IMG/VR virus record: IMGVR_UViG_3300045988_103312
Coordinates: 1 to 52,573 of that record
Length of the DNA: 52,573 nt
Source of the DNA: a virus
Direction: 5' to 3' (one strand)
Shown here piece by piece: positions 1 to 52,573 of this stretch; position 1 is the stretch's first letter; the number at the start of each line of letters is the position of its first letter. The notes under the pieces are model-generated. The model was not told the DNA's origin. It worked only from the letters and a program-made list of their open reading frames with translations, and did no database searches. The position numbers and the translations under genes are program-made.

Positions 1-55
1 ATCGTAGACAGGATATTTTGCTGAGCGTTGGATATGTTTTGGATGTCCAGCAGCA
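1..55. repeat. Terminal direct repeat (nt 1-55 = nt 52519-52573); contig closes into a 52,518-bp circle
   Basis: Identical 55-mer atcgtagacaggatattttgctgagcgttggatatgttttggatgtccagcagca read at both ends; a minus-strand ORF stays in frame across the junction. Confidence 0.95.
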
Positions 56-188
56 TCCGCGTCTGTTGGTGCTGCGCGTCCTCCAGCGCATTAAGGCGGC
101 GCTGGTAGCTCTTATGATCGGACTCGTTGCTGGCCTTCAGCGCCGCGAGTTCCTCTCCAATCGCATGCAGATGGTTTTCGTCGTTCAT
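1..188 (-). CDS. XhlA-like lysis-associated membrane protein, 5' part (ATG at 188; continues over the circular junction into 52518..52359; 115 aa total)
   Basis: GGAGG 8 nt upstream of ATG; N-terminal coiled coil (MNDENHLHAIGEELAALKASNES...) and C-terminal TM helix (KKLAFEIVKYVVLAAVGVAVGYIIKGV) as in XhlA-type proteins; lies between endolysin and holin. Confidence 0.6.
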   Translation of the reverse strand, partial: MNDENHLHAIGEELAALKASNESDHKSYQRRLNALEDAQHQQTRMLLDIQNISNAQQNILST

Positions 189-208
189 TGGCGTATCCTC
201 CGATCCTG

Positions 209-1201
209 TTATTTCAGCTTTCCGTATTTGCCGGACACCCAGGCGTTTTGATTTTCATATGCTACCAGCAGCCAGCCGTTGTCGGCCGTCTCGCCGCCGT
301 AGGGGAGCACGTCGCCCCGATGGGCAACGCCGAGGATTTTGCCGTCGGTGTTGGGCGCGGTGCGCACATAGCAATTGCCGCCCTCGATGGCCACATAGCG
401 ATGCTCCGCCTCCGGCTCGTCCGCTTCCAGCGCCTCCAGCATGGCCGCATGGCTCTTGGGGCCGTACTGGCCATCCATGCCAAGCTTGTGATCGCCCTGA
501 AACGCCCTCACCGCAAACTCCGTGGCGTCGCCGAACTCGCCGTCCGCGCCCCACTTGCCCAGATCGTAGCCCAGCTGGATGAGGTACTGCTGGAGCTGCT
601 TCACGTCCGCGCCCTCCGCGCCGTGCTTCAGCAGCCGCTCGCCCAGCGCGTACTCTCTGGCCTCGACAGTTCCCTCGTACTTCGCGCCGTCGTCCAGCAC
701 CACAACCGTGTGGCCGTGGGTCTTGGTCACGAGGATGTCGCCCTTGCCGAGGTACGCGCTCTGGTCGGTGTACTTCGCGCCCTTCAGCTCCACAAATGCG
801 CCGGTTTTCAGCAGATTCGCGGGCATGTTCCCCGTTCGGAAATCGCTGGGCAGGCCCTTGATGCCCGCGTAGGCGCAGCACACCCGCACCAGCGCCGAGC
901 AGTCCGTCTCGCAGTTGGTCTTGACCTTGGCGCAGTCAAAGCCCACCGCCTCGGCCACCTTGTACAGCGTGTTGCGCTGCCACTGGTCATAGCCGATGTG
1001 GCTGTTTTTGCACGCCGCCTCCATGTCCGCGGCGATCCTCAGCGCCGCCGTGCGATCCTTGGCGCGGAACACCCGCCAGCCCTTTTTGTGGACGTAAAAC
1101 TTCTGTTTGCTTACTTCTTTCCCGGTTTGATCCCCAGCTTTTCCGCCATAAGCCTTTCCTCTTTCATCAATTCGCGCGGAACCTACGTACACGTTAGACA
1201 T
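209..1201 (-). CDS. Endolysin: NlpC/P60-type peptidase + peptidoglycan-binding repeat + SH3-like C-terminus
   Basis: Cys/His pair in DCSALVRVCC ... THGHTVVVLDDG; PG_binding_1-like LQQYLIQLGYDLGKWGADGEFGDATEFAVRAFQ; SH3-like NGWLLVAYENQNAWVSGKYGKL; adjacent to holin genes. Confidence 0.9.
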   Translation of the reverse strand: MSNVYVGSARIDERGKAYGGKAGDQTGKEVSKQKFYVHKKGWRVFRAKDRTAALRIAADMEAACKNSHIGYDQWQRNTLYKVAEAVGFDCAKVKTNCETDCSALVRVCCAYAGIKGLPSDFRTGNMPANLLKTGAFVELKGAKYTDQSAYLGKGDILVTKTHGHTVVVLDDGAKYEGTVEAREYALGERLLKHGAEGADVKQLQQYLIQLGYDLGKWGADGEFGDATEFAVRAFQGDHKLGMDGQYGPKSHAAMLEALEADEPEAEHRYVAIEGGNCYVRTAPNTDGKILGVAHRGDVLPYGGETADNGWLLVAYENQNAWVSGKYGKLK

Positions 1202-1805
1202 GAATTACCACACTTCCTTTCGCTCTTTGCTCCCCTCTAATAATTCTTCCAACTTGGCTTTCGCCAATTTGAAACTCTTTTGCAATACTAGCATTCGACA
1301 TGCTGCTAGTTGCTTTCATCCACCTGATTTTCTCAACTTCTTCGTCAGAAAGTTTGTAATGATAGGCACTTTCACCATATCTTCTTTCTGTTCTTCTGTT
1401 GGTTCTCAATCCAGTCCTCAACGCATGGATATTGTTGTGAGATTGGGTACACCATTCGAGATTCTCAATATTGTTATTGAGTTTATTTCCGTCAATATGG
1501 TTTACAACATCATATCCATTTGGGTTATCAAGAAACGCCATCGCAACCAACCTATGTATCTTGATTTGCTTTGACTTGCCATCAACCATAAAATTGTATA
1601 CTCGATAACCTGTATTCCCGACTGCGCATTCAATAATTTTCTCTGGCACAAAACGGTTTCGCGAATTAATATAGCTATTTCGCCGTAGTCGCCCTGTGGA
1701 TGAAATTGAGTATGAAGCATGCACCCCTAAAACAGCGAGAGACTTCCACTCTTCGGCCTTGCCCCTCTCGTCGATTCTCGCCGATCCTACCCGTACCGTT
1801 GCCAT
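1194..1805 (-). CDS. HNH homing endonuclease (HNH_3/NUMOD-like), N-terminus duplicated from endolysin
   Basis: VNHIDGNKLNNNIENLEWCTQSHN motif; C-terminal HTH-like ASIAKEFQIGESQVGRII; visibly AT-rich; first 17 aa match endolysin N-terminus; stop overlaps lysin ATG (ATGTCTAA). Confidence 0.85.
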   Translation of the reverse strand: MATVRVGSARIDERGKAEEWKSLAVLGVHASYSISSTGRLRRNSYINSRNRFVPEKIIECAVGNTGYRVYNFMVDGKSKQIKIHRLVAMAFLDNPNGYDVVNHIDGNKLNNNIENLEWCTQSHNNIHALRTGLRTNRRTERRYGESAYHYKLSDEEVEKIRWMKATSSMSNASIAKEFQIGESQVGRIIRGEQRAKGSVVIHV

Positions 1806-1822
1806 GTTTCATCCATCCTTTC

Positions 1823-2134
1823 TCATTTCGGCGTTCCCGCCGCGATCCATGTCACAGCGGGCATGCGTCCCGATGAATCACCGTTAAAAATCCGCGCCGT
1901 GAAACCCGTGGTCGTGGGCAAACCGTTCACCGACACGCAGCATCGCCCAAATGTCCCCGCAGTGGACTCTGACTTGAAGCCCACCACCACTACAGGCACG
2001 CTCTGAAACGCCTTGGGGAACGTCACCGATACATCTGCATAGCTGCCGCTGGATACGTTCGTCGCAGCGATAAGTCCGCACTGCACGCCCACATCCGCCG
2101 GGAAATGGTTGTGCCCAGTGTTCCAGTTCGCCAT
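1823..2134 (-). CDS. Small H-type-lectin-like domain protein (tail-fibre accessory?)
   Basis: VSVTFPKAFQSVPVVVVGFKS...TTGFTARIFN...AVTWIAAGT matches the H-type lectin layout by eye; last gene of the fibre cluster. Confidence 0.5.
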   Translation of the reverse strand: MANWNTGHNHFPADVGVQCGLIAATNVSSGSYADVSVTFPKAFQSVPVVVVGFKSESTAGTFGRCCVSVNGLPTTTGFTARIFNGDSSGRMPAVTWIAAGTPK

Positions 2135-2290
2135 TTACGCCACCCCCAGAGCCGCGCGGATGGCCTCAAGGTCGTCCGTGGTCAGGGCGGGGTAGTCCGC
2201 TGCGATGTCCTCAAAGGATTCACCGTTCGCGATGCGGATGCGGAACGCCCGCACCATGATTCGCAGCTTCAGATTGTTCAAAGTCTTCAT
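2135..2290 (-). CDS. Hypothetical 51-aa protein (below ORF-track cutoff)
   Basis: MKTLNNLKLRIMVRAFRIRIANGESFEDIAADYPALTTDDLEAIRAALGVA; GGAGGAGG SD just upstream; fills the gap between 2134 and 2292 exactly. Confidence 0.45.
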   Translation of the reverse strand: MKTLNNLKLRIMVRAFRIRIANGESFEDIAADYPALTTDDLEAIRAALGVA

Positions 2291-2291
2291 G

Positions 2292-2597
2292 TCATTCACC
2301 TCCTCCAATCAGGTCTGCCATCATCAGGATTATATCGTCTGTCGTGCCCTCTAGCACGTCGAGGCGCTGTTCCGGCGTTGGAGACGGGGTAGGTACATTC
2401 GCCTGCATTGCCTCCATTTCGGCGATTTCCTCCGGTGTCATCTCCACGTTCTGTGCTTCCATTATGGGCACAGTCACGGTGTAGGTTTCATCGTAGGATT
2501 CCGAGATCAGCTCGCCCATCTCGCTGTATTGAGCGGGGATGGTGCGGATGCGAGTCTCCGTTCGTTCACCGGTTTTGACCAGTACGTTTTTCTTCAT
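2292..2597 (-). CDS. Hypothetical acidic 101-aa protein downstream of tail fibre
   Basis: ATGA overlap with stop of fibre gene (2594-2597); no motif recognised. Confidence 0.6.
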   Translation of the reverse strand: MKKNVLVKTGERTETRIRTIPAQYSEMGELISESYDETYTVTVPIMEAQNVEMTPEEIAEMEAMQANVPTPSPTPEQRLDVLEGTTDDIILMMADLIGGGE

Positions 2598-3967
2598 GCT
2601 CTCACCCCGTAGATTTTGAGATTTGTGCCCTTCGGGATCGGCCCGGAAATTTTTAGTGTGGTTATTCGCGAAGGTTTGGTTGTAGCGCTAAATATTGTCT
2701 TCATCGCGAGAAGATTGATGCCCATAAGCGAAGGCGTTGACGAAACGGATGTAGTACTATACTTGTAATAACCATTAGCGGTGCCATGTTCGACAACAAC
2801 TTCATACTGGGCTGCTATCTGAGCAAGACCCCAGTACGCCGAAAATGAATGACCGGAGTCGAAGCTCGTTTCCAGTGCACATGTACCCGTGTGACCGGAT
2901 TCGCCGATAATCATAAGGTACATTCTGGTTATATCCAGATTGCGCTCGACAAGTTTAACGTTATCCTCATCCACTGTAATCTCCTCGATCAGCTCATACG
3001 GCTTATCAATGCCCATCCTATCCCGTGCAGCCTTCTGTTCAGCGTCCGTCCACGCCGCGCCTTTGCCGTCGCACATGGCGGCTTTGACGGCGTAGTCCAT
3101 GTTCGCGCATACTATCGTTTTACGATTTCCAACTCTCCTAGATATTTCCTCATCGGTGGCATACGAAATCATCAAGCTGCCGTTATTGTTCCAGATGCCG
3201 CTATTTGTTGGAGTGAGTATACTTACTACGCCCGGCGTGGTCGCCTGTGCAATCGGCACATTCGCCACACCGCCATCCAGCACGCTGTTGCCAGCGACCT
3301 GCACATCCTTGACCGGCGCATACCCCAGCGCAGCTTCGATGTTCTCGGCGGTTACAGATGCGTCGCTGCCCGGATCGCCCTTTGGCCCCTGTCCGCCGGG
3401 ATCACCTGTGTCACCTTTGTCACCCTTAGCACCGGGTGCTCCGTCCTTACCGTCAGTACCGTCTCTGCCCGGCCTGCCCTCGGGGATGCCAAAGTGCATC
3501 GTTCCCGTCTTTCCGTCGTATTCCGCCGTGGCAGGCTCTCCGTAGGCCACGCTCTCGGCCTCGGCCTTCATGTTCTTGATGCTGCCGATGGCGGTGGTAA
3601 TCTTGTCCACCCAGTCCATGCCCGGCTCCGGTGCGTCCGTCTCCTGCCCGGTCAGACTTTTGTCCACCATAGTAGAGAGGATTTTGGATTTGGCCAGCAC
3701 ACCGTCCACCGTAACGCGCACCTCTGCCTCGCCGCTCCCAGCAATGGCCGTGTCCGCGCTGGTGGGCTGCCAGACGAGACATCCGTCCCGCAGCTCCGCC
3801 GCCACGGGATAGATGCCGCTCTCGCCATGCCGCCGGTGCAGCAGCGTCACCACCGCACCGGGGTACTCCACGAGGTATTCAGACACATCAATTTCTACCG
3901 TTCGCGCGAGATTCTCGCCGCACCTGCCGAGCAGTATGTATCCGCCCTTGGTCACATCATATTTCAC
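2594..3967 (-). CDS. Tail fibre / baseplate upper protein (BppU-like N-domain) with collagen-like triple-helix segment
   Basis: N-terminus MKYDVTKGGYILLGRCGENLARTVEIDVSEY... like BppU N-domain; 12 G-X-Y triplets GRPGRDGTDGKDGAPGAKGDKGDTGDPGGQGPKGDPG (nt 3368-3478); AT-richer C-terminal head domain. Confidence 0.8.
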   Translation of the reverse strand: MKYDVTKGGYILLGRCGENLARTVEIDVSEYLVEYPGAVVTLLHRRHGESGIYPVAAELRDGCLVWQPTSADTAIAGSGEAEVRVTVDGVLAKSKILSTMVDKSLTGQETDAPEPGMDWVDKITTAIGSIKNMKAEAESVAYGEPATAEYDGKTGTMHFGIPEGRPGRDGTDGKDGAPGAKGDKGDTGDPGGQGPKGDPGSDASVTAENIEAALGYAPVKDVQVAGNSVLDGGVANVPIAQATTPGVVSILTPTNSGIWNNNGSLMISYATDEEISRRVGNRKTIVCANMDYAVKAAMCDGKGAAWTDAEQKAARDRMGIDKPYELIEEITVDEDNVKLVERNLDITRMYLMIIGESGHTGTCALETSFDSGHSFSAYWGLAQIAAQYEVVVEHGTANGYYKYSTTSVSSTPSLMGINLLAMKTIFSATTKPSRITTLKISGPIPKGTNLKIYGVRA

Positions 3968-13053: not shown

Positions 13054-13424
13054 GCGCTGCGCGCCTTCGTCTCTTCGATTTTCACTTCGTCCTCGGTCTT
13101 AAAAACCGGCTCCGAGGGCTTTTGCTCCTCTTTTTCCGCGCGGAGCCACGCAAAGGCGATCAGCTCCCAAACGTAGCTGGCGCGGAACTCCGGGTGATGC
13201 ACGATGTATTCAAAATCATCGCTGGAGAACATCTGCCGGAGCAGCATGAAATTCTCCTCACCGGTGATGGCGACCTTATCGCGCACCATGCGCTCGATCT
13301 TGAGCATATAATCAAAGGGCAGCTCCGCCGGGACGATGCAGTCGCGGCCAAATACCCGGATCGTCATCGTCGCGTTCTCACGCTCGGACAGGAAACGGTC
13401 AAAATCAAGGGTTTTACGGGCCAT
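13044..13424 (-). CDS. Tail assembly chaperone (gpG-like)
   Basis: 126 aa, acidic C-terminus, immediately upstream of frameshift site and TMP. Confidence 0.8.
   Translation of the reverse strand: MARKTLDFDRFLSERENATMTIRVFGRDCIVPAELPFDYMLKIERMVRDKVAITGEENFMLLRQMFSSDDFEYIVHHPEFRASYVWELIAFAWLRAEKEEQKPSEPVFKTEDEVKIEETKARSAKK
13047..13053 (-). promoter_or_regulatory. -1 programmed ribosomal frameshift heptamer A AAA AAG
   Basis: Last codons of chaperone G are GCA AAA AAG TAA; classic X XXY YYZ slippery site at the conserved G/GT position upstream of the TMP. Confidence 0.75.
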
Positions 13425-13454
13425 ATTTGTGATCTCCTCTCAAAATTTGGCATT

Positions 13455-13479
13455 AAAAAACCGCATCATCATGATGCGG
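13455..13479 (-). terminator. Intrinsic terminator of the secreted-protein moron
   Basis: Minus strand ccgcatcat g atgatgcgg followed by tttttt. Confidence 0.7.
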
Positions 13480-13501
13480 CTGGGCCTATTGTAAGTATGC
13501 T

Positions 13502-13918
13502 TTAGGAGAGTAATGAGGAAATGTTTCGCCCATTAACTTCCAAATATTCCAAAATGCCATCGTTGCTATAGAGTACAAAGTACATATCTACTCCAGAGAT
13601 CGAGTATTTCTGGAAATTTGCTTGCGCCACAAAGTAAACATTCAATCGCGCAAGCATATCATATAGCGGCTGGATGTCATTAGATGCACGCTTTTCCTCG
13701 TAAAAAGCATGATCCTGATCTTTCGCCGTAAGTTTCAGAAAAATCGAATCAAGCGTCGAATCGTAATAGGATTCAACGGCGAAAGAAGAGGATGAATCAA
13801 AACTTTCACCCATTTGTGTTGCAATCGCATCGCAAACGTCCTGTTTCGACGGGGCACCGTAAGCCGTTGTTACGAATAACAATGCAAACAGGCAAACCAA
13901 GCAAACGACTCTTTTCAT
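13502..13918 (-). CDS. Secreted small protein (moron), 138 aa with signal peptide
   Basis: MKRVVCLVCLFALLFVTTAYG/APS signal peptide; AAGGAG SD; AT-rich; own promoter and terminator; track ORF extension upstream is noise. Confidence 0.75.
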   Translation of the reverse strand: MKRVVCLVCLFALLFVTTAYGAPSKQDVCDAIATQMGESFDSSSSFAVESYYDSTLDSIFLKLTAKDQDHAFYEEKRASNDIQPLYDMLARLNVYFVAQANFQKYSISGVDMYFVLYSNDGILEYLEVNGRNISSLLS

Positions 13919-13949
13919 ATTTAACCGCTCCTTCCATTTATGTAAAGAA

Positions 13950-13978
13950 ATAGTAACATAGAAACGGCTGCTTGTCAA
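13950..13978 (-). promoter_or_regulatory. Moron promoter TTGACA-17-TACTAT
   Basis: Minus strand TTGACA (13978-13973), 17-nt spacer, TACTAT (13955-13950); -35 overlaps stop of upstream gene. Confidence 0.55.
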
Positions 13979-14370
13979 TACCCTCCGCAATAATAAATTC
14001 GGAAATTTGCGGCGTAGAACTGAGTGTTGTTCCCGGCCATGCCGGAGAACTGGAAGCCCTTTTCCGTCTCGATGCGGGAAATATATGCGCCATCGCGCAC
14101 GAAGATCAGGTCGCGCGCGTCGTCGAGAATGGACATGATGGACAGCGATTGCGCCAGCGCCCAGCCGCCGTCCATATCGCTGCGCACGACGATCTGCACG
14201 CGAGTTCCCTCGTCGTCGCCGGGAGCGCGCAGGTCGTTGGCGTACACGCAAATGGCCTTGGTGGGCTTTTCCGGCATATAGCCGTAGAACACAGCGCCGT
14301 CCGTGTCGCCCTCCAGCGGCAATTGCAGCTTTCCTGCAAGAAAACGCGCAAGCTGTTCAATGATGCTCAT
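13975..14370 (-). CDS. Hypothetical structural protein (possible tail terminator/completion protein)
   Basis: 131 aa next to the tail tube gene; DGAVFYGYMPEKPTKAICVYAN resembles DUF3168/minor-capsid-type joining proteins only loosely. Confidence 0.35.
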   Translation of the reverse strand: MSIIEQLARFLAGKLQLPLEGDTDGAVFYGYMPEKPTKAICVYANDLRAPGDDEGTRVQIVVRSDMDGGWALAQSLSIMSILDDARDLIFVRDGAYISRIETEKGFQFSGMAGNNTQFYAANFRIYYCGGY

Positions 14371-18748: not shown

Positions 18749-18911
18749 AGGTCGGTCGTATGAGCTTTGCGCACTTCGTGGATTCTTGGCAGGCGCGGCC
18801 TTCTCCTGCATCTCTCGAAGGCGCATGCATACGCCCCCTGTCAATACCATCGGCGTGTGGTCGCCGCGAAATTTACCACCTCAAGAATCCCTTTAGTGCA
18901 ATTAAATTATA

Positions 18912-20528
18912 TCAGATTTCGTCTCGCTTGTAAAGCACTTTTTTATTCCGGATGTTCTGCTCCCACTTTTTTCTGTTTGTTTCCATGAAAGTAAGAACGG
19001 AATTCTTATATTCCGGGTTATCCGTGGATGTGCTCAATCGCAATACAAGCCGAAACATTTTATCGTCCTCTTTGATCTCTTTTAAGATCAGGCCCGTATG
19101 AACCTTATCCTCAAGAATATAGTCTGGGCTGCGCAATATTTGAGCGATATAAGAGTAATACCGCTCGTAATCATTCGGGTGACGCTCTTTGATGTGCTGA
19201 ATCCGCTCTTCTGTAATCACGACCTCGTCCGTGGTAATATCCTTGGAGACGCAAGAATATATGCTCCGGTCGATTTTGCAGATGAAATTCACGCTGTTTT
19301 CGCTCGTTTTCGTGGACGCATTCGGCGCATCAGTCTTCGTTATCGCGGGATTAGTGGCGATGTTTTGAATTATACGCCCATTTTCGCCAACTGTAAAGGG
19401 CTTAAGCTTTTTTGCATCCGCGCTGAGGAGCACTCTGCCGCCCTCGCGGTCGTAGCGGCGGGGGAGCTTGGTCTCGCCGGTCAGCGTGCGGAGCTGGCGC
19501 TGCAGCTTATCAATGTGGGCCTTGCACATGCGCTCGTTTTCCGGCGTTGTGGACGCGGCCTGCATGCGCTTCCACTTGCGGATTTCCCGCTCCAATGTGC
19601 GCTGGTGCTGACTGGCCGTGTAGCGCGCCGCGCTCTCCTCCGGCGTGTATTCGCCCATGCCGGCGGTCAGATCGGACACGCCGGGAATGTATGGCTGGAG
19701 CACGTCTGCACAGTTGGGGTGAAACAGGCCCTGATCCATTGCGCCCTGCAATGATGGATGCGTCGGATCGTCGCCGGAAAGCGAAAGGATCACGCCATAC
19801 CATCTCGCGCACAGCGGGCATGCGCCCGGATGCCGGGTGACATAGGCGAGGTCTTGGCCCTTGGCCCGCATGGTGTCGATGGTGGCTTGCAGTCCGGCGC
19901 GGTGGATGGCCGTCCGCATGGCCATGTTGGCGTATTCATACAGGCCCCATTTTCTGCCGGCCTTGTCGGTAAAGCCGGTCACGCCGCTGGCCGCAAACTC
20001 TCTGATCGCCTCCTGCACTTCCGCGTTCAGTTTGGACGCGTTTCCGGGTTCCAGCCACGCGTCCCGCACCTTTTCCACGATCTGGCGGTAGATGTCGTCC
20101 GCGTCACGGCGCATGTGCTTCAGCTCGATTTGAGTGGACTCGTTGACAAGCCGCGTGAGCTCGTCGACGATTTTGATCATTTCCCGCTGCGCTCGCTCCG
20201 CTTCAACCTCCGTCTGCACGGCGAATGCCTCAATTTCATCGGCAATCGTCTCGGCGGTCGCCGCATAGGCCGTCAAAAGCGCCTGACGGGCCGCCTGAGC
20301 GGCTTCCTCTTCGAGCGCTGCGCAGATATTGTCCACGACGCGCGCAAGCTCACGCTGGATTCTGCGGCGCGTCAGTGCGCGATAGCGGCCGTGCTTGAGC
20401 GCCTTGCCGCCGAGCAGTGCGCCGAAGGCCCCGAACAGCTTGAGTTCCGCGTCTGAAAAAGAACTGGCGAACGCGTCCGCGGCCTCCAGAATGCGCCGAG
20501 GCAGGCTCTTACGCCCTCCGTTCGCCAT
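18912..20528 (-). CDS. MuF/SPP1 gp7-family head morphogenesis protein with extra C-terminal nuclease-toxin-like module
   Basis: MuF core (HPGACPLCARWYGVILS, LFHPNCADVLQPYI); last ~165 aa (18915-19409) AT-rich with ITEERIQHIKERHPNDYERYYSYIAQILRSPDYIL. Confidence 0.85.
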   Translation of the reverse strand: MANGGRKSLPRRILEAADAFASSFSDAELKLFGAFGALLGGKALKHGRYRALTRRRIQRELARVVDNICAALEEEAAQAARQALLTAYAATAETIADEIEAFAVQTEVEAERAQREMIKIVDELTRLVNESTQIELKHMRRDADDIYRQIVEKVRDAWLEPGNASKLNAEVQEAIREFAASGVTGFTDKAGRKWGLYEYANMAMRTAIHRAGLQATIDTMRAKGQDLAYVTRHPGACPLCARWYGVILSLSGDDPTHPSLQGAMDQGLFHPNCADVLQPYIPGVSDLTAGMGEYTPEESAARYTASQHQRTLEREIRKWKRMQAASTTPENERMCKAHIDKLQRQLRTLTGETKLPRRYDREGGRVLLSADAKKLKPFTVGENGRIIQNIATNPAITKTDAPNASTKTSENSVNFICKIDRSIYSCVSKDITTDEVVITEERIQHIKERHPNDYERYYSYIAQILRSPDYILEDKVHTGLILKEIKEDDKMFRLVLRLSTSTDNPEYKNSVLTFMETNRKKWEQNIRNKKVLYKRDEI

Positions 20529-42758: not shown

Positions 42759-42965
42759 TTACGCCGTCTGATCGTCGTCGGTGGCGAAGAGGTAGTCATA
42801 TGGCTTTTTGAAAAGCCGAATGTAAGCATTGATCTCTCGCACGGTGAATTTGCCGGTTGCCAACTTATTTTCGAACGTTGGGCGGCTTACACCGATCACC
42901 GCAGCCATATCATCGTTTGACATTTTGTGAAAGGCTTTTTGTCCAAGCAGATTAGGGAACATCAT
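42759..42965 (-). CDS. Cro-like HTH regulator
   Basis: MSNDDMAAVIGVSRPTFENKLATGKFT; divergent from the CI-like gene across an operator region. Confidence 0.7.
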   Translation of the reverse strand: MMFPNLLGQKAFHKMSNDDMAAVIGVSRPTFENKLATGKFTVREINAYIRLFKKPYDYLFATDDDQTA

Positions 42966-42991
42966 TTCACCTCCAGTCTTTTATTAAGAGG

Positions 42992-43117
42992 TCGCACATC
43001 GCGATCTTGTGATTATATTATAGTCGCGATTTGCGATATTGTCAAGGGGTTTTGCAAAAAAAAGTTCGCGAAATGCGATGTTTTTTTATTGACTTAAAAC
43101 AGAATATCGGTTATAAT
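42992..43117. promoter_or_regulatory. Genetic switch: back-to-back consensus promoters and three 14-bp operators
   Basis: Minus TTGACA (43045-43040)-17-TATAAT (43022-43017); plus TTGACT (43089-43094)-17-TATAAT (43112-43117); operators tcgcacatcgcgat (42992-43005), tcgcgatttgcgat (43024-43037), tcgcgaaatgcgat (43066-43079). Confidence 0.65.
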
Positions 43118-43135
43118 AGAATCGAGGTGAAAACA

Positions 43136-43606
43136 ATGACAGTTGGAGAGCGCATAAAAAAGGCGCGCTTAGAAAAAGGCTATACGCAACTGCAATTAGC
43201 GGAAATGATAGGGGTCGCCAAGAACACAATTACTGGGTACGAAACAGGTACGCGTGAGCCGGACTCAAGTCGAATCACAGCTATTGCGAATGCGTTGAAT
43301 GTATCAGGAGACTACATTATAGGTACTGAATACGACTGGCTTCCGTCATCAGCGGCGATGAAAATCGCCGCCAAATACGACAAGCTCGATCAGCATGGCA
43401 GGGAGCTGATTAATTGGGTAGTCGACCACGAAATTAGAAGAGTGCAGTCCGCGGTACCGGCAAAGCGCGACACGACCAAGGTCACGGTCGATCCCGACGA
43501 GGTCAGCGTGTTGGAGAAGGCCCAGCAGGGCGCAGCAAATGCCGCGCTAAGCGGATCAAATGCCGCGGAGGGCGAAACGGCTGCTCCAGACGAAAAGGCT
43601 CAGTAA
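43136..43606 (+). CDS. CI-like repressor (XRE HTH, no S24 peptidase domain seen)
   Basis: ATG 43136 after GAGGTG; ERIKKARLEKGYTQLQLAEMIGVAKNTITGYETGTREP. Confidence 0.75.
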   Translation: MTVGERIKKARLEKGYTQLQLAEMIGVAKNTITGYETGTREPDSSRITAIANALNVSGDYIIGTEYDWLPSSAAMKIAAKYDKLDQHGRELINWVVDHEIRRVQSAVPAKRDTTKVTVDPDEVSVLEKAQQGAANAALSGSNAAEGETAAPDEKAQ

Positions 43607-49756: not shown

Positions 49757-50181
49757 AGGTTGATCCCTCCCAGCGCGTTTTCAAGCTGCGACAACTTGTC
49801 CGACACAGCCTTGATCTCGTCCTTGGTGGCAAACTGCGATACGTCGATCTGGGGCGCGGGCGCAGCCTGCGTCTGGGCCTGCGGGTCGATTTCCAGCAGC
49901 CGGAACGACTTGAGCGTCGCCGTGCCCATGCTGTCCACGGCCTTGACGTGGATGACCGGGTCGTTGTTGTCCATCATCCACGCCGTCTGTCCGGGCTGGA
50001 CGATGTGGTCGCGCGCGCCCTGCACACCGTTGACGTAAATCCACGACACATTGCTCTGCGCGCCGCTGTTCTGCGGCGGCACCTGTTGCGTCATTTGCAT
50101 CATCTGCGGCTGAGGGGGCATGTAGTTGGCGTTGAAATATCCCGGCACAGCGGGCTGGGGAAATGGGTAGTTATAAGCCAT
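49753..50181 (-). CDS. P/Q/M-rich N-tail + small beta domain protein, weakly GerQ-like (cargo gene 1)
   Basis: ATG 50181 six nt after GAGGTG; MAYNYPFPQPAVPGYFNANYMPPQPQMMQMTQQ...; GARDHIVQPGQTAWMMD. Confidence 0.6.
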   Translation of the reverse strand: MAYNYPFPQPAVPGYFNANYMPPQPQMMQMTQQVPPQNSGAQSNVSWIYVNGVQGARDHIVQPGQTAWMMDNNDPVIHVKAVDSMGTATLKSFRLLEIDPQAQTQAAPAPQIDVSQFATKDEIKAVSDKLSQLENALGGINL

Positions 50182-50361
50182 GCGTTGCACCTCGCTTTCT
50201 GATGCTATTTTCGCATGAGTAGCAGATGGGCGCGGGAAGTTATGCGGGGTTTGTGTGAAAAATCAAAAAAAGTGAAGAGATTGAAGATACAACACAAGAA
50301 AAAACGCAAGAGCATCAAAAAAGAAGTGAATTTTGATGATACACTTGCAGAAATCCCGGCC

Positions 50362-50402
50362 AAAAATGAAAATACCGGCATCCCAATTACAGGAATGCCG
50401 GT
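50362..50402 (-). terminator. Intrinsic terminator of the three-gene moron
   Basis: Minus strand accggcat...atgccggt stem followed by attttcattttt. Confidence 0.65.
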
Positions 50403-50415
50403 GCTTGTTGATTAC

Positions 50416-50745
50416 TTAGCTTTTGAGGCTGTCCTCTATCGCTTTCTGCATCATTGCAATTGCAGTGTTCTTATATACGGGTTTCCAGCCCCAGTAGTCA
50501 TCTCCTTTGACCATTTCATATTTATTGTGTACCATATACCATCCGCCATCAAATTGATCTCGGTATTCGGCCTCCAGTTCTTCCGCCGATGCATCATTCC
50601 CCAAGTCTCTCCACGTAAAAGTTACCTTGTATTTGTTCCCTCTGCCGCTTGCCCACTCAAACGCTTTTTCTGCATTGTCAAATACACCACTGTCAAAACA
50701 CAATCCATCCCGGTTTATGAGGTCTACTCTAATTGCACCCTTCAT
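50416..50745 (-). CDS. Hypothetical 109-aa protein (moron gene 3)
   Basis: AAGGAGGAAAAG SD; AT-rich; no motif. Confidence 0.65.
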   Translation of the reverse strand: MKGAIRVDLINRDGLCFDSGVFDNAEKAFEWASGRGNKYKVTFTWRDLGNDASAEELEAEYRDQFDGGWYMVHNKYEMVKGDDYWGWKPVYKNTAIAMMQKAIEDSLKS

Positions 50746-50764
50746 TTTCTTTTCCTCCTTGCTC

Positions 50765-50974
50765 CTATTGCATCAATTCGTCCATTGTACAATGCAACGC
50801 ATCTGTAAGTTTCAGCAACGCTACCCCATTCGGCGTGTGTTTCCCAGTTTCCCAGCGGGCAATCATTGCTTGGGTAGTGCCGATCGCTTCTGCGAGCTGC
50901 TTTTGTGTCAGCCCCAGCGCGATACGACGCTGGGCAATCAGGCTGTTGTTGGTAACCCTTGGGTCAGTTCGCAT
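50765..50974 (-). CDS. XRE-family HTH regulator (moron gene 2, Aca-like)
   Basis: ATG 50974 nine nt after GGAGG; RRIALGLTQKQLAEAIGTTQAMIARWETGKHTP. Confidence 0.8.
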   Translation of the reverse strand: MRTDPRVTNNSLIAQRRIALGLTQKQLAEAIGTTQAMIARWETGKHTPNGVALLKLTDALHCTMDELMQ

Positions 50975-51533
50975 TGGCACCTTCCTCCTTTCTGCGACAA
51001 TCAGGTTTATTCAACGCAAATCTTGTCACGGTATAATAAGGCGCCCAGTTCCCGATTTCGTCAATCTTGGATTCATATTCACGCTTACATTCTAACGCTT
51101 TTTCTTTTTTGTCATACACTCCAACAATCGGGGCTTCATCATTGAGAGTGCCAGGATTGCCGTGGCGCATAACTACGTATACAGCAACTTCTTCATCAAT
51201 TCCATCGTTTTCGGCCGTCTCCGCCATGTCTTCGGTTGCTTCGGTTTCTTCGGGCACGAGGATACTAATGATTGTATCAAGCTGGGCAGCGCATTCTTCG
51301 CCGTGCCCCATGCTGCGAGTGGCAATTTCATCGTTCGCAAGGTCGATCCACATCTTGCCATTAAAGCGATCATAACGATTAACGGCGAATCTTCCCGGAA
51401 ATTCATCACAATTGGCAGTCCATGCATCCACAGCAGTGAGGTCAATATATAGTCTCTCTATTCCATTTTTCCTCCAAAGACGAGCCAGTTTATTTTCGAT
51501 CAGCGCCTCGATAACTTTTTTAGTGTACTTCAT
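50964..51533 (-). CDS. Hypothetical 189-aa protein (moron gene 1)
   Basis: GGAGGG SD; AT-rich; acidic central tract EETEATEDMAETAENDGIDEE. Confidence 0.65.
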   Translation of the reverse strand: MKYTKKVIEALIENKLARLWRKNGIERLYIDLTAVDAWTANCDEFPGRFAVNRYDRFNGKMWIDLANDEIATRSMGHGEECAAQLDTIISILVPEETEATEDMAETAENDGIDEEVAVYVVMRHGNPGTLNDEAPIVGVYDKKEKALECKREYESKIDEIGNWAPYYTVTRFALNKPDCRRKEEGANAN

Positions 51534-51598
51534 GATTTCCCTCCACTTTCTGCGGCTCTGCCGCCGGTCGCTCTTGCTTCCCTCAACCTTGTGACTAT

Positions 51599-51627
51599 AT
51601 TATATATCATTTTTGATATATTGTCAA
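51599..51627 (-). promoter_or_regulatory. Perfect consensus promoter TTGACA-17-TATAAT with embedded 8-4-8 palindrome
   Basis: Minus TTGACA 51627-51622, TATAAT 51604-51599; palindrome atatatca tttt tgatatat at 51602-51621. Confidence 0.65.
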
Positions 51628-51671
51628 GCCTTTTTACGGGGTTTTCCAAAACTTTTTTTGCAAAAAAAGCC

Positions 51672-51706
51672 AAAAGAAAAAAGGCCGGCGGATTGCTCCA
51701 CCGGCC
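51672..51706 (-). terminator. Intrinsic terminator ending the late/lysis operon
   Basis: Minus strand ggccggtgg agcaatc cgccggcc followed by ttttttctttt. Confidence 0.75.
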
Positions 51707-51713
51707 TGAAAGC

Positions 51714-51968
51714 CTACATACATTTATCTACCGCCTGCATCACCAGCTCGATGCGCGGGACGATCTGCCCGCGCAGGCGCTTGGAAACGGCGCTCCTGTC
51801 CATGCCCACCGCTGCGGCGATGTCCGCATAGTCCATGCCCCAGACGAGGCGAGAGGCGGCGATATGCACATCTGACGGCGCGAGCCGCGCCTCGATGATG
51901 AGGCGCGACATCACCGACGAGGTCACGCCGTCAAACTGCGGGTACTCGTCGTATTTCATCATATGCAC
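51714..51968 (-). CDS. Small sigma-70 region-4-like HTH protein
   Basis: WGMDYADIAAAVGMDRSAVSKRLRG; last gene before the late terminator. Confidence 0.5.
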   Translation of the reverse strand: MHMMKYDEYPQFDGVTSSVMSRLIIEARLAPSDVHIAASRLVWGMDYADIAAAVGMDRSAVSKRLRGQIVPRIELVMQAVDKCM

Positions 51969-51980
51969 GGCCTCCCGGGG

Positions 51981-52340
51981 TTATTCCTCGGGAGGTTTTT
52001 CGTCTTCGGCTTTGGTTTCCTCCTCCCGTGCTTTCGTTTCGCTGGGGGAGTAAGTGTGCAGGGCATCCATGTTTTCTTTAATAATTGCCTCGATTTCGCT
52101 GCGATCCACGCTGTAGCCGCGCTGACTGAGCTGGTAGATTACCCAGTCCAGTTTCTCAGAGCCGTTTTTGGCTCCGTAGAGCTGTTCGGCGGCAAAGACC
52201 ATCGTCTTGATGGTCGCCTTGAGCAGCGCCTGCTGCTCGTTGGTCGTCCGCGCCTTGATCCACGGGATCAGCTTGTAGGTAATCAGCACCGCCAGCAGCG
52301 CGATGATTGCCTGGATGATGGGGGTCAGATTGATGTTCAT
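51981..52340 (-). CDS. Holin (LL-H-like family)
   Basis: N-terminal TM MNINLTPIIQAIIALLAVLITYKLIPWI, then soluble charged domain, as in LL-H-type holins; lysis cassette position. Confidence 0.65.
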   Translation of the reverse strand: MNINLTPIIQAIIALLAVLITYKLIPWIKARTTNEQQALLKATIKTMVFAAEQLYGAKNGSEKLDWVIYQLSQRGYSVDRSEIEAIIKENMDALHTYSPSETKAREEETKAEDEKPPEE

Positions 52341-52358
52341 GGTTTTTCTCCTTTCTTG

Positions 52359-52573
52359 CTATACCCCTTTGATGATGTAGCCCACCGCCACGCCGACGGC
52401 GGCCAGCACGACGTATTTGACGATCTCAAAGGCCAGTTTCTTCCATTTGTCTCCCGGCTCCCGCTCGATCACGTCGATGCGCTTGCCCAGCTTGTCCACC
52501 TTGCCGTCGATGCTGTTAATCGTAGACAGGATATTTTGCTGAGCGTTGGATATGTTTTGGATGTCCAGCAGCA
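52359..52573 (-). CDS. XhlA-like protein, 3' part (continuation of the ORF starting at nt 188; last 55 nt duplicate nt 1-55)
   Basis: ...INSIDGKVDKLGKRIDVIEREPGDKWKKLAFEIVKYVVLAAVGVAVGYIIKGV, stop TAG 52359-52361. Confidence 0.6.
   Translation of the reverse strand, partial: LLDIQNISNAQQNILSTINSIDGKVDKLGKRIDVIEREPGDKWKKLAFEIVKYVVLAAVGVAVGYIIKGV
52519..52573. repeat. Terminal direct repeat, second copy (identical to nt 1-55)
   Basis: Read directly. Confidence 0.95.

What the first reader, a model, noticed from the sequence alone, without database searches (positions are those of the whole stretch)
1151..1805. HNH endonuclease gene lodged in the 5' end of the endolysin gene with a synonymously recoded duplication of the first lysin codons
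Seen: the HNH ORF (1805->1194) begins MATVRVGSARIDERGKA. The endolysin ORF, which starts 8 nt before the HNH stop (ATGTCTAA overlap), begins MSNVYVGSARIDERGKA. Residues 6-17 are identical, yet 9 of the 12 codons differ, and every difference is synonymous. Copy at 1790-1755: GTA GGA TCG GCG AGA ATC GAC GAG AGG GGC AAG GCC. Copy at 1186-1151: GTA GGT TCC GCG CGA ATT GAT GAA AGA GGA AAG GCT. The upstream copy uses the GC-rich codons of the backbone. The downstream copy, the HNH body and roughly the first 40 lysin codons (to about nt 1085) are visibly AT-richer. Inference: a mobile HNH cassette sits inside the lysin coding sequence after codon 17 and has captured the native lysin start/RBS for itself. 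It carries a replacement lysin 5' end from a different allele, so lysin is re-initiated by translational coupling. The silent recoding would also remove the endonuclease target from the resident copy (self-immunity). This is neither a typical intergenic free-standing HEG nor an obvious intron or intein.
Basis: partly seen in the sequence, partly recalled or inferred. Interest (0 to 1): 0.75.

Follow-up and report, generated by a model that had tools for sequence, protein, structure and literature searches.

The report
Homing nuclease lodged in lysin start
A selfish DNA-cutting-enzyme gene sits 17 codons inside a phage's cell-wall-lysis gene, borrows that gene's start signal, and carries a re-spelled spare copy of the gene's beginning so the lysis enzyme can still be made; this is a phage, front-end version of an arrangement documented in fungal mitochondria.

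Summary
ORF 1805->1194 (-) begins with the lysin's first 17 codons. The complete lysin ORF (1201->209) restarts 8 nt before the HNH stop. In codons 6-17, 9 of 12 codons differ and all differences are synonymous.

Five HNH-less relatives define the empty site. The insert is 664 bp (1091-1754): an I-HmuI-type NUMOD4/HNH body lacking its own start, an SD-like GAAAGGAAGTG, and imported lysin codons 1-37.
- The imported codons are 63-67% nt identical to resident alleles, against 90-95% for the rest of the gene (pS 0.99 vs 0.14).
- The leader matches the resident allele.

Evidence on function and spread:
- The HNH is under purifying selection (pN/pS 0.17).
- The same cassette and junction lie behind three different upstream genes.
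- It sits at the edge of a 2.66-kb near-identical block shared with another phage.
- Two more diverged lineages show the same architecture, one with a different junction.
- Free-standing relatives with their own ATG occupy the same niche.
- No intron or intein signature was found.

Best reading: a free-standing homing endonuclease fused into the lysin 5' end by one-sided illegitimate repair. Cleavage, self-immunity and translational coupling are inferred, not shown. The closest precedent is the fungal mitochondrial endonuclease "gene hybrid", which affects 3' ends. I rate it a new variant of a known kind.

The parts
1823..2134 (-). Upstream gene (103 aa, Gp53-like_C / H-type lectin, tail-fibre-like). 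It is hypervariable between relatives and forms the left boundary of the niche.
   Evidence: Pfam. Window = L002 100%, L001 ~ L004 90%, L080 ~ L005 78%.
1806..1843 (-). Resident lysin translation-initiation region (GAGAAAGGATGGATGAAAC before the ATG), now serving the HNH ORF. Position 1843 is the left edge of the block shared with L001.
   Evidence: Identical in HNH-less relatives directly before their lysin ATG. The last mismatch to L001 is at 1844.
1755..1805 (-). Leader: resident lysin codons 1-17 (MATVRVGSARIDERGKA), fused in frame to the HNH body. It is a relic of the original lysin 5' end.
   Evidence: One nucleotide different from the L002 lysin start. GC3 0.71.
1754..1755 (-). Left junction: GCC|GAA (lysin codon 17 | first HNH codon).
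   Evidence: Empty-site alignment. NUMOD4 starts at residue 18. I-HmuI residue 2 aligns with residue 19.
1091..1754 (-). Imported cassette (664 bp): HNH body, embedded SD, and lysin' codons 1-37.
   Evidence: Absent from L002-L006. Low GC. Travels as a unit in L080/L081.
1194..1805 (-). Chimeric HNH ORF (203 aa): leader, NUMOD4 (residues 18-71, nt 1593-1754), HNH_3 (residues 83-125, nt 1431-1559) and a C-terminal helix-turn-helix-like region.
   Evidence: Pfam. PDB 1U3E (I-HmuI) at E 5e-9. pN/pS 0.17 against L080. Catalytic-motif columns are invariant in the four fused members.
1211..1221 (-). SD-like GAAAGGAAGTG inside the last HNH codons (K-G-S), 11 nt before the lysin ATG.
   Evidence: Conserved at the nucleotide level in the window, L080, L083, L082 (GAAGGGAAGTG), L165 and L237, although the HNH proteins are only 37-47% identical. 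Function inferred.
1194..1201 (-). ATGTCTAA: the lysin start codon overlaps the HNH stop codon.
   Evidence: Start/stop overlaps of 8-23 nt are also present in L082, L083, L165 and L237.
1091..1201 (-). Imported lysin codons 1-37 (MSNVY...KQKFYV), the functional 5' end of the present lysin.
   Evidence: 63-67% nt identity to L002-L006 against 90-95% for codons 38-330. pS 0.99 against 0.14. 97.3% identity to L080.
209..1090 (-). Resident part of the lysin (codons 38-330): remainder of the ELLD domain, PG_binding_1 and SH3_3.
   Evidence: Pfam. 90-95% nt identity to HNH-less relatives.

Best explanation
This is a mobile homing-endonuclease cassette of the I-HmuI type (NUMOD4 + HNH + C-terminal DNA-binding region). 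Its lineage normally lives free-standing, immediately upstream of phage lysin genes.

Proposed origin (inferred). The nuclease cut an HNH-less ELLD-type lysin near its highly conserved 5' end. The break was repaired from an HNH-bearing donor. On the right side repair used homology, with the crossover after lysin codon 37. On the left side there was no homology, because the upstream tail-fibre-like gene is hypervariable, so the end was joined illegitimately after resident codon 17, directly onto the first codons of the HNH.

Result (shown). The resident RBS, ATG and 17 codons now initiate the HNH, which has no start of its own. The lysin is encoded complete by an imported 5' end (codons 1-37) spliced at the DNA level onto the resident body.

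Expression (inferred). The lysin is translated from an SD-like motif inside the last HNH codons, with an ATG that overlaps the HNH stop.

Mobility (inferred from distribution). Once formed, the cassette is flanked on both sides by conserved lysin sequence, the leader on the left and codons 38 onward on the right. It can therefore home or recombine into other phages even when their upstream genes differ.

Role of the repeat divergence (inferred). The strong synonymous divergence of the two copies comes from the donor allele. It should leave neither copy as an intact target, and it removes the homology that would otherwise delete the HNH.
For: - Empty site: L002-L006 are uninterrupted at codon 17.
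- Cassette limits: a sharp identity step after codon 37 (63-67% against 90-95%; pS 0.99 against 0.14) and matching GC3 in the HNH body (0.37) and the imported piece (0.43).
- The leader is the resident allele and tracks the local background. The window's leader is the L002/L006 type; L080's is the L003/L004 type.
- The HNH has no start of its own. NUMOD4 begins at residue 18, I-HmuI Met1 is replaced, relatives start 3-7 residues before the Trp, and no usable internal start exists.
- The gene is working: pN/pS 0.17 with an intact ORF at 87% nt identity, and the HNH motif columns are invariant.
- Mobility: the same junction follows three different upstream genes, each with an HNH-less nearest relative. 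A 2.66-kb block with 3 mismatches is shared with L001, and its left edge is 38 nt upstream of the leader ATG. HNH-plus and HNH-minus phages come from the same IMG/VR dataset.
- Ancestral state: free-standing relatives with their own ATG occupy the same niche. L166 precedes an ELLD lysin, L165 lies between a holin and a lysin, and L237 directly follows an H-lectin gene. L165 and L237 share the SD/overlap design; L166 uses a different RBS (GGAGGTG) and no start/stop overlap.
- Recurrence: L083 is fused at the equivalent codon. L082 is fused at codon 35 within a GAR-AAG-TGG microhomology, and its HNH is closest to the free-standing P0173.
- Intronless homing with co-conversion of flanks is an established pathway (PMC3984707).
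Against: - No nuclease activity, cleavage site, transcript or protein data exist.
- The donor genome was not found. The best natural match to the imported piece is 78% over 101 nt, so microhomology at the window's left junction cannot be examined.
- The shared 2.66-kb block and the three backgrounds could come from ordinary modular recombination of lysis and tail-fibre genes rather than from nuclease-driven homing.
- The window's NUMOD4 match is below Pfam's cut-off (17.2 against 23.4 bits).
- I-HmuI itself nicks both intron-plus and intron-minus DNA (my own knowledge of that enzyme), so self-immunity through target divergence is not guaranteed in this family.
- The architecture is rare: three lineages among thousands of HNH hits.
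- HNH synonymous divergence (0.38) exceeds that of the flanks (0.19), and this is unexplained.
Confidence: 0.7

Rival explanations
1. Frozen scar. A single illegitimate recombination placed an HNH gene in the lysin 5' end. The element no longer homes, and its present distribution reflects ordinary vertical descent plus modular recombination of neighbouring genes. The HNH may be inert or may have been recruited for some phage function.
For: The window and L080 share one junction, so one event can explain that lineage. Tail-fibre and lysis modules are commonly exchanged among phages (general knowledge). The architecture is rare. No activity data exist.
Against: pN/pS of 0.17 argues against an inert gene. 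The gene is absent from close relatives, so it is not essential. The left edge of the recently exchanged block abuts the cassette. The cassette's own lysin 5' piece stays linked to the HNH across backgrounds. Two further lineages have the same architecture.
Confidence: 0.2
2. Self-splicing intron (group I or II). Under this reading, 1151-1754 is removed from the RNA, the leader (exon 1) is joined to codon 18 of the downstream copy, and the HNH is an intron ORF fused to the upstream exon.
For: Joining GCC (1755) to TAT (1150) would be in frame and would give an intact lysin. From memory, not checked here, phage lysin genes with HNH-encoding group I introns are known in Streptococcus thermophilus phages and Staphylococcus phage K.
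Against: No Rfam family matches at E<=10 in 800-2200, or at E<=1 in four sister loci. The coding sequence fills the whole interval, leaving no room for a ribozyme core. The RNA fold z-score is -0.56. A complete lysin ORF with its own SD and ATG already exists, so splicing is unnecessary. In L082 the leader is 35 codons long, which would need a different 'exon' boundary.
Confidence: 0.03
3. In-place adaptive recoding. The downstream 17-37 codons began as an exact tandem duplicate of the resident lysin start. They were later driven apart at silent sites by selection for nuclease immunity or against repeat-mediated deletion.
For: The divergence is overwhelmingly synonymous within codons 6-17. The imported piece has the lowest GC3 of all ELLD 5' ends sampled. 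No donor allele was found. Divergent repeats would stabilise the element.
Against: The piece also differs at 8 of 37 amino acids from resident alleles (MSNVY against MATVR; K/R, V/L, K/T, F/W, V/L), as a foreign allele would. Its codon bias matches the HNH body, which points to shared residence in an AT-richer genome. The divergent tract runs to codon 37, well beyond the 17 duplicated codons. The closest natural allele, L216, shares long identical runs with it.
Confidence: 0.06
4. Assembly chimera or sequencing artefact that created a false duplication.
For: The sequence is metagenome-derived.
Against: The same junction is found in an independent IMG/VR contig (L001). It is also found in two Logan runs at 87% nt identity (L080, L081) and in a protein cluster of 30 member sequences on 3 contigs. 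Both ORFs are intact.
Confidence: 0.01

Closest known systems
I-HmuI / I-HmuII-type HNH homing endonucleases (NUMOD4 + HNH_3 + C-terminal DNA-binding domain; PDB 1U3E, Bacillus phage SPO1)
   Same: Sequence family and domain order. 1U3E is the only solved relative (E 5e-9). HNH_3 is above the Pfam cut-off. Thousands of phage homologues are annotated as HNH homing endonucleases.
   Different: I-HmuI is encoded inside a group I intron of a DNA polymerase gene and has its own Met. Here there is no intron, and Met1 is replaced by 17 lysin codons.
Free-standing homing endonucleases and intronless homing (T4 SegF/SegG type; reviewed in PMC3984707)
   Same: The nuclease gene lies next to a conserved target gene. 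It shows presence/absence polymorphism among close relatives. Flanking donor sequence moves with it (imported lysin codons 1-37 and a 2.66-kb shared block)..
   Different: Classical examples are intergenic and have their own translation signals. This one lies inside the coding sequence, uses the host gene's start, and leaves a partial duplication of the target gene.
Fungal mitochondrial mobile endonuclease ORF 'gene hybrids' (Allomyces macrogynus atp6; Glomus atp6, atp9, cox2, nad3; PMC3630166)
   Same: An endonuclease ORF is inserted in a host gene and brings a foreign copy of the gene's end that replaces the native one. The native end persists as a relic. The two copies are 64-81% identical in DNA but nearly identical in protein. 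The ORF is sometimes in phase with the host gene. This is the nearest match to the logic seen here.
   Different: Those cases affect the 3' end, use LAGLIDADG or GIY-YIG enzymes, and occur in organelle genomes. Here the 5' end is affected, the enzyme is an HNH in a phage, the relic is not silent but serves as the nuclease's start, and the host gene must be re-initiated from an SD carried by the element.
Genes-in-pieces: mobE inserted in nrdA of Aeromonas phage Aeh1 (Friedrich et al. 2007, cited in PMC8351571)
   Same: A free-standing HEG sits inside a phage coding sequence and the host function is retained without splicing.
   Different: There the host protein is split into two polypeptides that reassemble. 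Here the host protein is made whole, because the element supplies the missing end. The paper itself could not be read, so this comparison rests on the citing paper and my own knowledge.
Group I introns with HNH ORFs in phage lysin genes (S. thermophilus phages; lysK of Staphylococcus phage K)
   Same: An HNH homing endonuclease is associated with a lysin gene.
   Different: Those are ribozyme-containing introns that need splicing. No intron signature is present here.

Membership tests
I-HmuI-like HNH endonuclease (Pfam HNH_3 / NUMOD4) | HNH (beta-beta-alpha-metal) nuclease motif | tested here: met
   HNH_3 at 38.2 bits against a cut-off of 24.8, residues 83-125. Aligns to 1U3E. N102, H103, D105, N110, N111, N115, N124 and H127 are invariant in the four fused members.
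I-HmuI-like HNH endonuclease (Pfam HNH_3 / NUMOD4) | N-terminal NUMOD4 module | tested here: inconclusive
   17.2 bits, below the 23.4 cut-off, for the window protein. The precomputed Pfam list includes NUMOD4 for P0002, P0003 and P0011. I-HmuI residues 2 onward align from residue 19.
I-HmuI-like HNH endonuclease (Pfam HNH_3 / NUMOD4) | Site-specific DNA nicking or cleavage | not testable with these tools
   Needs purified protein and substrates.
Free-standing homing endonuclease gene (intronless homing) | Presence/absence polymorphism at one site among close relatives | tested here: met
   L002-L006 lack it. The window, L001, L080 and L081 have it at the identical junction.
Free-standing homing endonuclease gene (intronless homing) | Not embedded in an intron or intein | tested here: met
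   No Rfam hits. The ORF ends in a stop and the lysin is in another frame.
Free-standing homing endonuclease gene (intronless homing) | Independent gene with its own translation start, located between genes | tested here: not met
   It has no start of its own and is fused to lysin codons 1-17 inside the lysin coding sequence. Relatives L165, L166 and L237 do meet this feature.
Free-standing homing endonuclease gene (intronless homing) | Co-conversion of flanking donor markers | tested here: met
   Imported lysin codons 1-37 stay linked to the HNH. A 2.66-kb near-identical block is shared with L001. This fits co-conversion but does not prove it.
Free-standing homing endonuclease gene (intronless homing) | The nuclease cuts the HEG-less allele near the insertion site, and the resident allele is resistant | not testable with these tools
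   Only the sequence differences are shown: 38/111 nt in the imported copy, and the leader copy interrupted at codon 17.
Group I / group II intron | Ribozyme core and a need for splicing to restore the host ORF | tested here: not met
   Nothing relevant from Rfam 15 covariance models at E<=10 or, in sister loci, at E<=1. Fold z-score -0.56. The lysin ORF is complete without splicing.
Intein | In-frame insertion in the host protein with splice-junction residues and no stop | tested here: not met
   The HNH ORF terminates (TAA at 1196-1194) and the lysin restarts in a different frame.
Mitochondrial-type endonuclease 'gene hybrid' (mobile ORF carrying a replacement gene end) | The endonuclease ORF carries a foreign copy of the host gene's end, and the native end is retained as a diverged duplicate that matches close relatives | tested here: met
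   The leader is one nucleotide from L002. The imported copy is 63-67% identical to resident alleles and mostly synonymous within the duplicated part. The description of the family is taken from PMC3630166.
Mitochondrial-type endonuclease 'gene hybrid' (mobile ORF carrying a replacement gene end) | 3'-terminal location, LAGLIDADG or GIY-YIG enzyme, organelle genome | tested here: not met
   5' end, HNH enzyme, tailed-phage genome. The element works like that class but is not a member of it.

The most novel reading that the evidence does not exclude
The fused form is not an accident but an evolved, heritable way for a homing endonuclease to live inside a conserved protein-coding gene without any splicing. 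I call it 'bring your own exon'. Under this reading each part has a job:
- The relic leader provides the nuclease's start signals and late timing, and it is the only conserved left homology arm in front of a hypervariable upstream gene.
- The imported, silently diverged 5' end keeps the lysin whole, destroys the nuclease's target, and prevents repeat-mediated loss.
- An SD written into the nuclease's last codons re-initiates the lysin.

The design would have arisen at least twice (junctions at codon 16/17 and codon 35) from free-standing ancestors, and it would spread by homing among ELLD-lysin phages of gut and rumen Clostridia.
Probability: 0.35. Interest if true: 0.7.

Novelty: new variant of a known kind. 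Interest (0 to 1): 0.55.

Why it matters
Homing endonucleases are thought to reach conserved, essential sequences mainly by hiding in introns or inteins, or by staying between genes. This locus shows a third route in a phage. The element sits inside the coding sequence and offsets the damage by carrying a replacement gene end. Fused and free-standing forms of one nuclease clade are both available, so the steps between them can be reconstructed and tested.

It gives concrete, cheap experiments: cleavage of three defined substrates, mixed infections, and N-terminal proteomics. These would show how target divergence gives immunity and how short homology arms support homing.

It extends the mitochondrial 'gene hybrid' phenomenon to phages and to 5' ends.

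On the practical side, such loci mislead annotation in three ways: a chimeric HNH ORF with a lysin N-terminus, ambiguity about the lysin start, and a foreign 5' segment that can distort lysin phylogenies and recombination analyses. It also matters for anyone cloning ELLD-type endolysins as enzybiotics.

Tried and rejected
- Near-identity search of 1-3000 against 50,697 deposited phages: no match.
- Intron hypothesis: rejected.
- Search for the donor of the imported lysin 5' end: three approaches failed. Exact DNA pattern in IMG/VR found only the window's own lineage. A genome-collection scan with the 49-aa N-terminus gave 47 ordinary ELLD lysins at 78% aa identity or less, none with an HNH or a duplication. 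The 5.8-billion-protein search with the 42-aa N-terminus returned only short truncated or frameshifted ORFs, which I judge to be an artefact of the short query.
- Exhaustive profile search of 1.84 billion representatives: swamped by multi-repeat HNH proteins. It was useful only for the free-standing relatives P0173 and P0203.
- Genome-collection scan with the HNH alignment: 80 generic NUMOD4-HNH loci, none fused to a lysin start.
- Empty-site relatives for the independent L082 lineage: none closer than 40%.
- Prophage or host identification with the lysin body: 61% at best, so the host is placed only as Clostridia/Bacillota.
- Promoter and terminator scan: nothing above chance, and no terminator between the HNH and the lysin.
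- Search with P0003: no additional fused members. One more free-standing member, P0281, was found.
- Literature: no phage paper describing this architecture in the held open-access library. Friedrich et al. 2007 could not be opened.
- The metagenome-contig scan was not used, because its proteins are already covered by the protein searches.
Full report
**Observation.** On the minus strand, ORF 1805->1194 (203 aa) begins MATVRVGSARIDERGKA. ORF 1201->209 (330 aa) begins MSNVYVGSARIDERGKA. The second ATG lies 8 nt before the first ORF's stop, giving ATGTCTAA. Codons 6-17 encode identical residues, yet 9 of the 12 codons differ and all differences are synonymous. Over the 17 codons the copies share 34/51 nt, with no identical run longer than 5 nt. 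GC falls to 0.35-0.45 across ~1100-1750, against 0.6-0.7 outside. The finding is accurate as written.

**What the two proteins are.** The 330-aa protein is an endolysin: ELLD domain PF25309 (residues 6-174, beginning at profile position 1), PG_binding_1 and SH3_3. The 203-aa protein has HNH_3 (above the cut-off) and NUMOD4 (below the cut-off). NUMOD4 starts at residue 18, the first residue after the lysin-like stretch. The only solved relative is the homing endonuclease I-HmuI (1U3E, E 5e-9). I-HmuI residue 2 aligns with residue 19, so the 17 lysin residues stand where I-HmuI has its initiator Met. Phage homologues align from residue 17-18 onward. Ordinary relatives begin 3-7 residues before the NUMOD4 tryptophan. 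Before the NUMOD4 domain the only in-frame start is the leader ATG. The next candidate, GTG at codon 28, lies inside NUMOD4 and has no SD.

**Empty site and cassette limits.** IMG/VR holds one contig with the same insert (L001) and five close relatives without it (L002-L006, lysin 88-94% identical). In these relatives the lysin reads ATG GC. ACG GTA ... GGC AAG GCC|TAC GGC without interruption. The window's leader differs from L002 at one nucleotide.

| Comparison | Lysin codons 1-37 | Lysin codons 38-330 |
|---|---|---|
| Window vs HNH-less relatives, nt identity | 63-67% | 90-95% |
| Window vs L002, pS | 0.99 | 0.14 |
| Window vs L080 (HNH-bearing), nt identity | 97.3% | 93.1% |

GC3 is 0.37 in the HNH body, 0.43 in lysin codons 1-37, 0.86 in the rest of the lysin and 0.71 in the leader. 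The insert is therefore 1091-1754 (664 bp). It comprises an HNH body without a start codon, followed by a foreign lysin 5' end of 37 codons. That 5' piece travels with the HNH: in L080/L081, whose HNH is 88% identical in protein, it is 97.3% identical while the rest of the lysin is 93.1%. The imported piece also differs from resident alleles at 8 amino acids. It is thus a diverged allele, not an in-place respelling.

**Not an intron, intein or artefact.**
- A permissive Rfam scan of 800-2200 gives only three chance-level hits to unrelated eukaryotic RNAs. Four sister loci give none.
- The would-be intron RNA folds no better than shuffles, z = -0.56.
- Coding sequence fills the interval, and the lysin ORF is complete.
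- The HNH ORF ends in a stop, and the lysin is in another frame.
- The junction recurs in independent datasets.

**Is the HNH alive and moving?**
- Between the window and L080 the HNH body has pN 0.062 and pS 0.378, a ratio of 0.17, and both ORFs are intact.
- The gene upstream of the leader differs in each HNH-bearing genome. Each version has its nearest relative in an HNH-less phage: window = L002 (100%), L001 ~ L004/L006, L080 ~ L005. The leader polymorphisms follow the background.
- The window and L001 share a 2.66-kb block with three mismatches. It runs from position 1843 (38 nt upstream of the leader ATG) through the HNH, the lysin and the downstream genes to ~51701 across the circular junction. 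Sequence on either side is 64-85% and 27-81% identical.

This is what homing with co-conversion would leave. Ordinary modular recombination could also produce it.

**Recurrence and ancestry.** Among about 390 HNH relatives retrieved, four clusters carry a lysin-type leader.

| Cluster | Locus | HNH protein identity to window | Junction |
|---|---|---|---|
| P0001 | window family | 100% | GKA\|EEWK (after codon 17) |
| P0002 | L080/L081 | 88% | GKA\|EEWK (after codon 17) |
| P0003 | L083 | 46% | GRA\|DEEAWK (equivalent position) |
| P0011 | L082 | 42% | after codon 35, ...SMQ\|EKWADV |

The L082 junction lies within a GAR-AAG-TGG stretch shared by the lysin and the HNH. In every case a complete ELLD lysin with its own, differently spelled N-terminus follows and overlaps the HNH stop.

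Free-standing relatives with their own ATG occupy the same niche:
- L166 sits directly before an ELLD lysin.
- L165 sits between a holin and a lysin.
- L237 sits directly after an H-lectin gene, as in the window.

The last HNH codons (…R.KGS…) spell GAAAGGAAGTG about 10 nt before the downstream start. This is true in the window, L080, L083, L082 (one change), L165 and L237, although the proteins are only 37-47% identical. The spacing matches the resident lysin RBS (GAGAAAGGA-N10-ATG).

A rough distance tree, without support values, groups the three junction-16/17 fusions. It pairs the junction-35 fusion with the free-standing P0173 at 54% identity. That suggests at least two independent fusions.

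None of 47 ordinary ELLD-lysin loci in bacterial genomes has an HNH or a duplicated start. Across all 237 fetched loci, duplicated starts occur only next to this HNH.

**Mechanism.**
- Shown: the anatomy, the empty site, the origin of each segment, purifying selection, the distribution across backgrounds, and the existence of free-standing relatives.
- Inferred, origin: the nuclease cuts naive ELLD lysins in the very conserved 5' region (…GSARIDE.G.A.GG.AGDQTG…). Repair from a donor is homologous on the right, with the crossover after codon 37. It is illegitimate on the left, because the upstream gene offers no homology. Only in-frame joins that keep the nuclease expressed survive.
- Inferred, expression: the lysin is re-initiated from the embedded SD with a start/stop overlap. 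No terminator or above-chance promoter intervenes.
- Inferred, maintenance: the leader then serves as the left homology arm for further spread. The divergence between the two copies leaves no intact target and no recombination substrate for deleting the HNH.

**Comparison with what is known.** The enzyme family is I-HmuI-like. The mobility logic is intronless homing (PMC3984707). The closest architectural precedent is the fungal mitochondrial 'gene hybrid'. There, a mobile endonuclease ORF brings a foreign 3' gene end and leaves the native end as a duplicate that is 64-81% identical in DNA but nearly identical in protein (Allomyces atp6; Glomus atp6, atp9, cox2, nad3; PMC3630166). The window is the mirror image at a 5' end, in a phage, with an HNH enzyme. 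It has two added features: the relic supplies the nuclease's start, and the element carries an SD for the host gene. I found no phage paper describing this, but the searchable library is limited to open-access texts.

**Verdict.** The finding is real and was correctly interpreted. Its mechanism is well supported structurally but untested biochemically. I rate it a new variant of a known kind, of moderate interest (0.55).

Noticed in passing
window 1-55 and 52519-52573: An exact 55-nt terminal direct repeat. The window is a circularly closed assembly of a ~52.5-kb phage genome, and relatives align across the ends.
   Followed up: yes
window 1-1843 plus 51701-52518: A 2.66-kb block with only 3 mismatches to IMG/VR contig 3300045988_142603 (L001/L164), flanked by much more diverged sequence. 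The HNH cassette sits at its left edge.
   Followed up: yes
L003:3715-3985: The HNH-less relative L003 has a different AT-rich insert of about 270 nt (a hairpin followed by a T-run, and a 42-aa ORF) in the same gap between the H-lectin gene and the lysin. This junction is an insertion hot spot.
   Followed up: partly
L216:3220-3222: An ELLD lysin with an in-frame TAG exactly at the conserved Gln of GYDQW(Q)RNTLY, with the reading frame otherwise intact. It is either a nonsense mutation or amber-to-Gln recoding in that phage.
   Followed up: no
window 1194-1754 vs L080:4052-4612: Synonymous divergence of the HNH body (pS 0.38) is about twice that of the adjoining lysin (0.19) and three times that of the imported lysin codons 1-37 (0.12), although all share one junction. 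This is unexplained. Possible causes are amelioration, homogenisation of the lysin by recombination, or extra constraint on the imported piece.
   Followed up: partly
window 13351-14050, 18801-19300, 42801-43350, 50151-50800, 51351-51750: Other low-GC islands (0.38-0.41 against a genome mean of 0.576). No HNH motif or lysin-start motif was seen in their ORFs. Their functions were not examined.
   Followed up: no
L166:316-1425: The free-standing HNH upstream of an ELLD lysin lies directly after an IS605-family TnpB (OrfB_IS605 / Cas12f1-like) gene.
   Followed up: no
window 1764-1766 (leader codon 14): The representative of the 100%-identity protein cluster (P0001) has Met instead of Arg at leader residue 14. 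In the lysins sampled that position is Arg or Asn, rarely Ser. This hints that the leader is no longer under lysin-type constraint.
   Followed up: no
L002:4043-4069 (resident lysin codons 15-22): The naive allele carries a short direct repeat, GGCAAGGC (codons 15-17 and 20-22, G-K-A ... G-K-A). The window-lineage junction lies immediately after the first copy. Its relevance is unknown.
   Followed up: no
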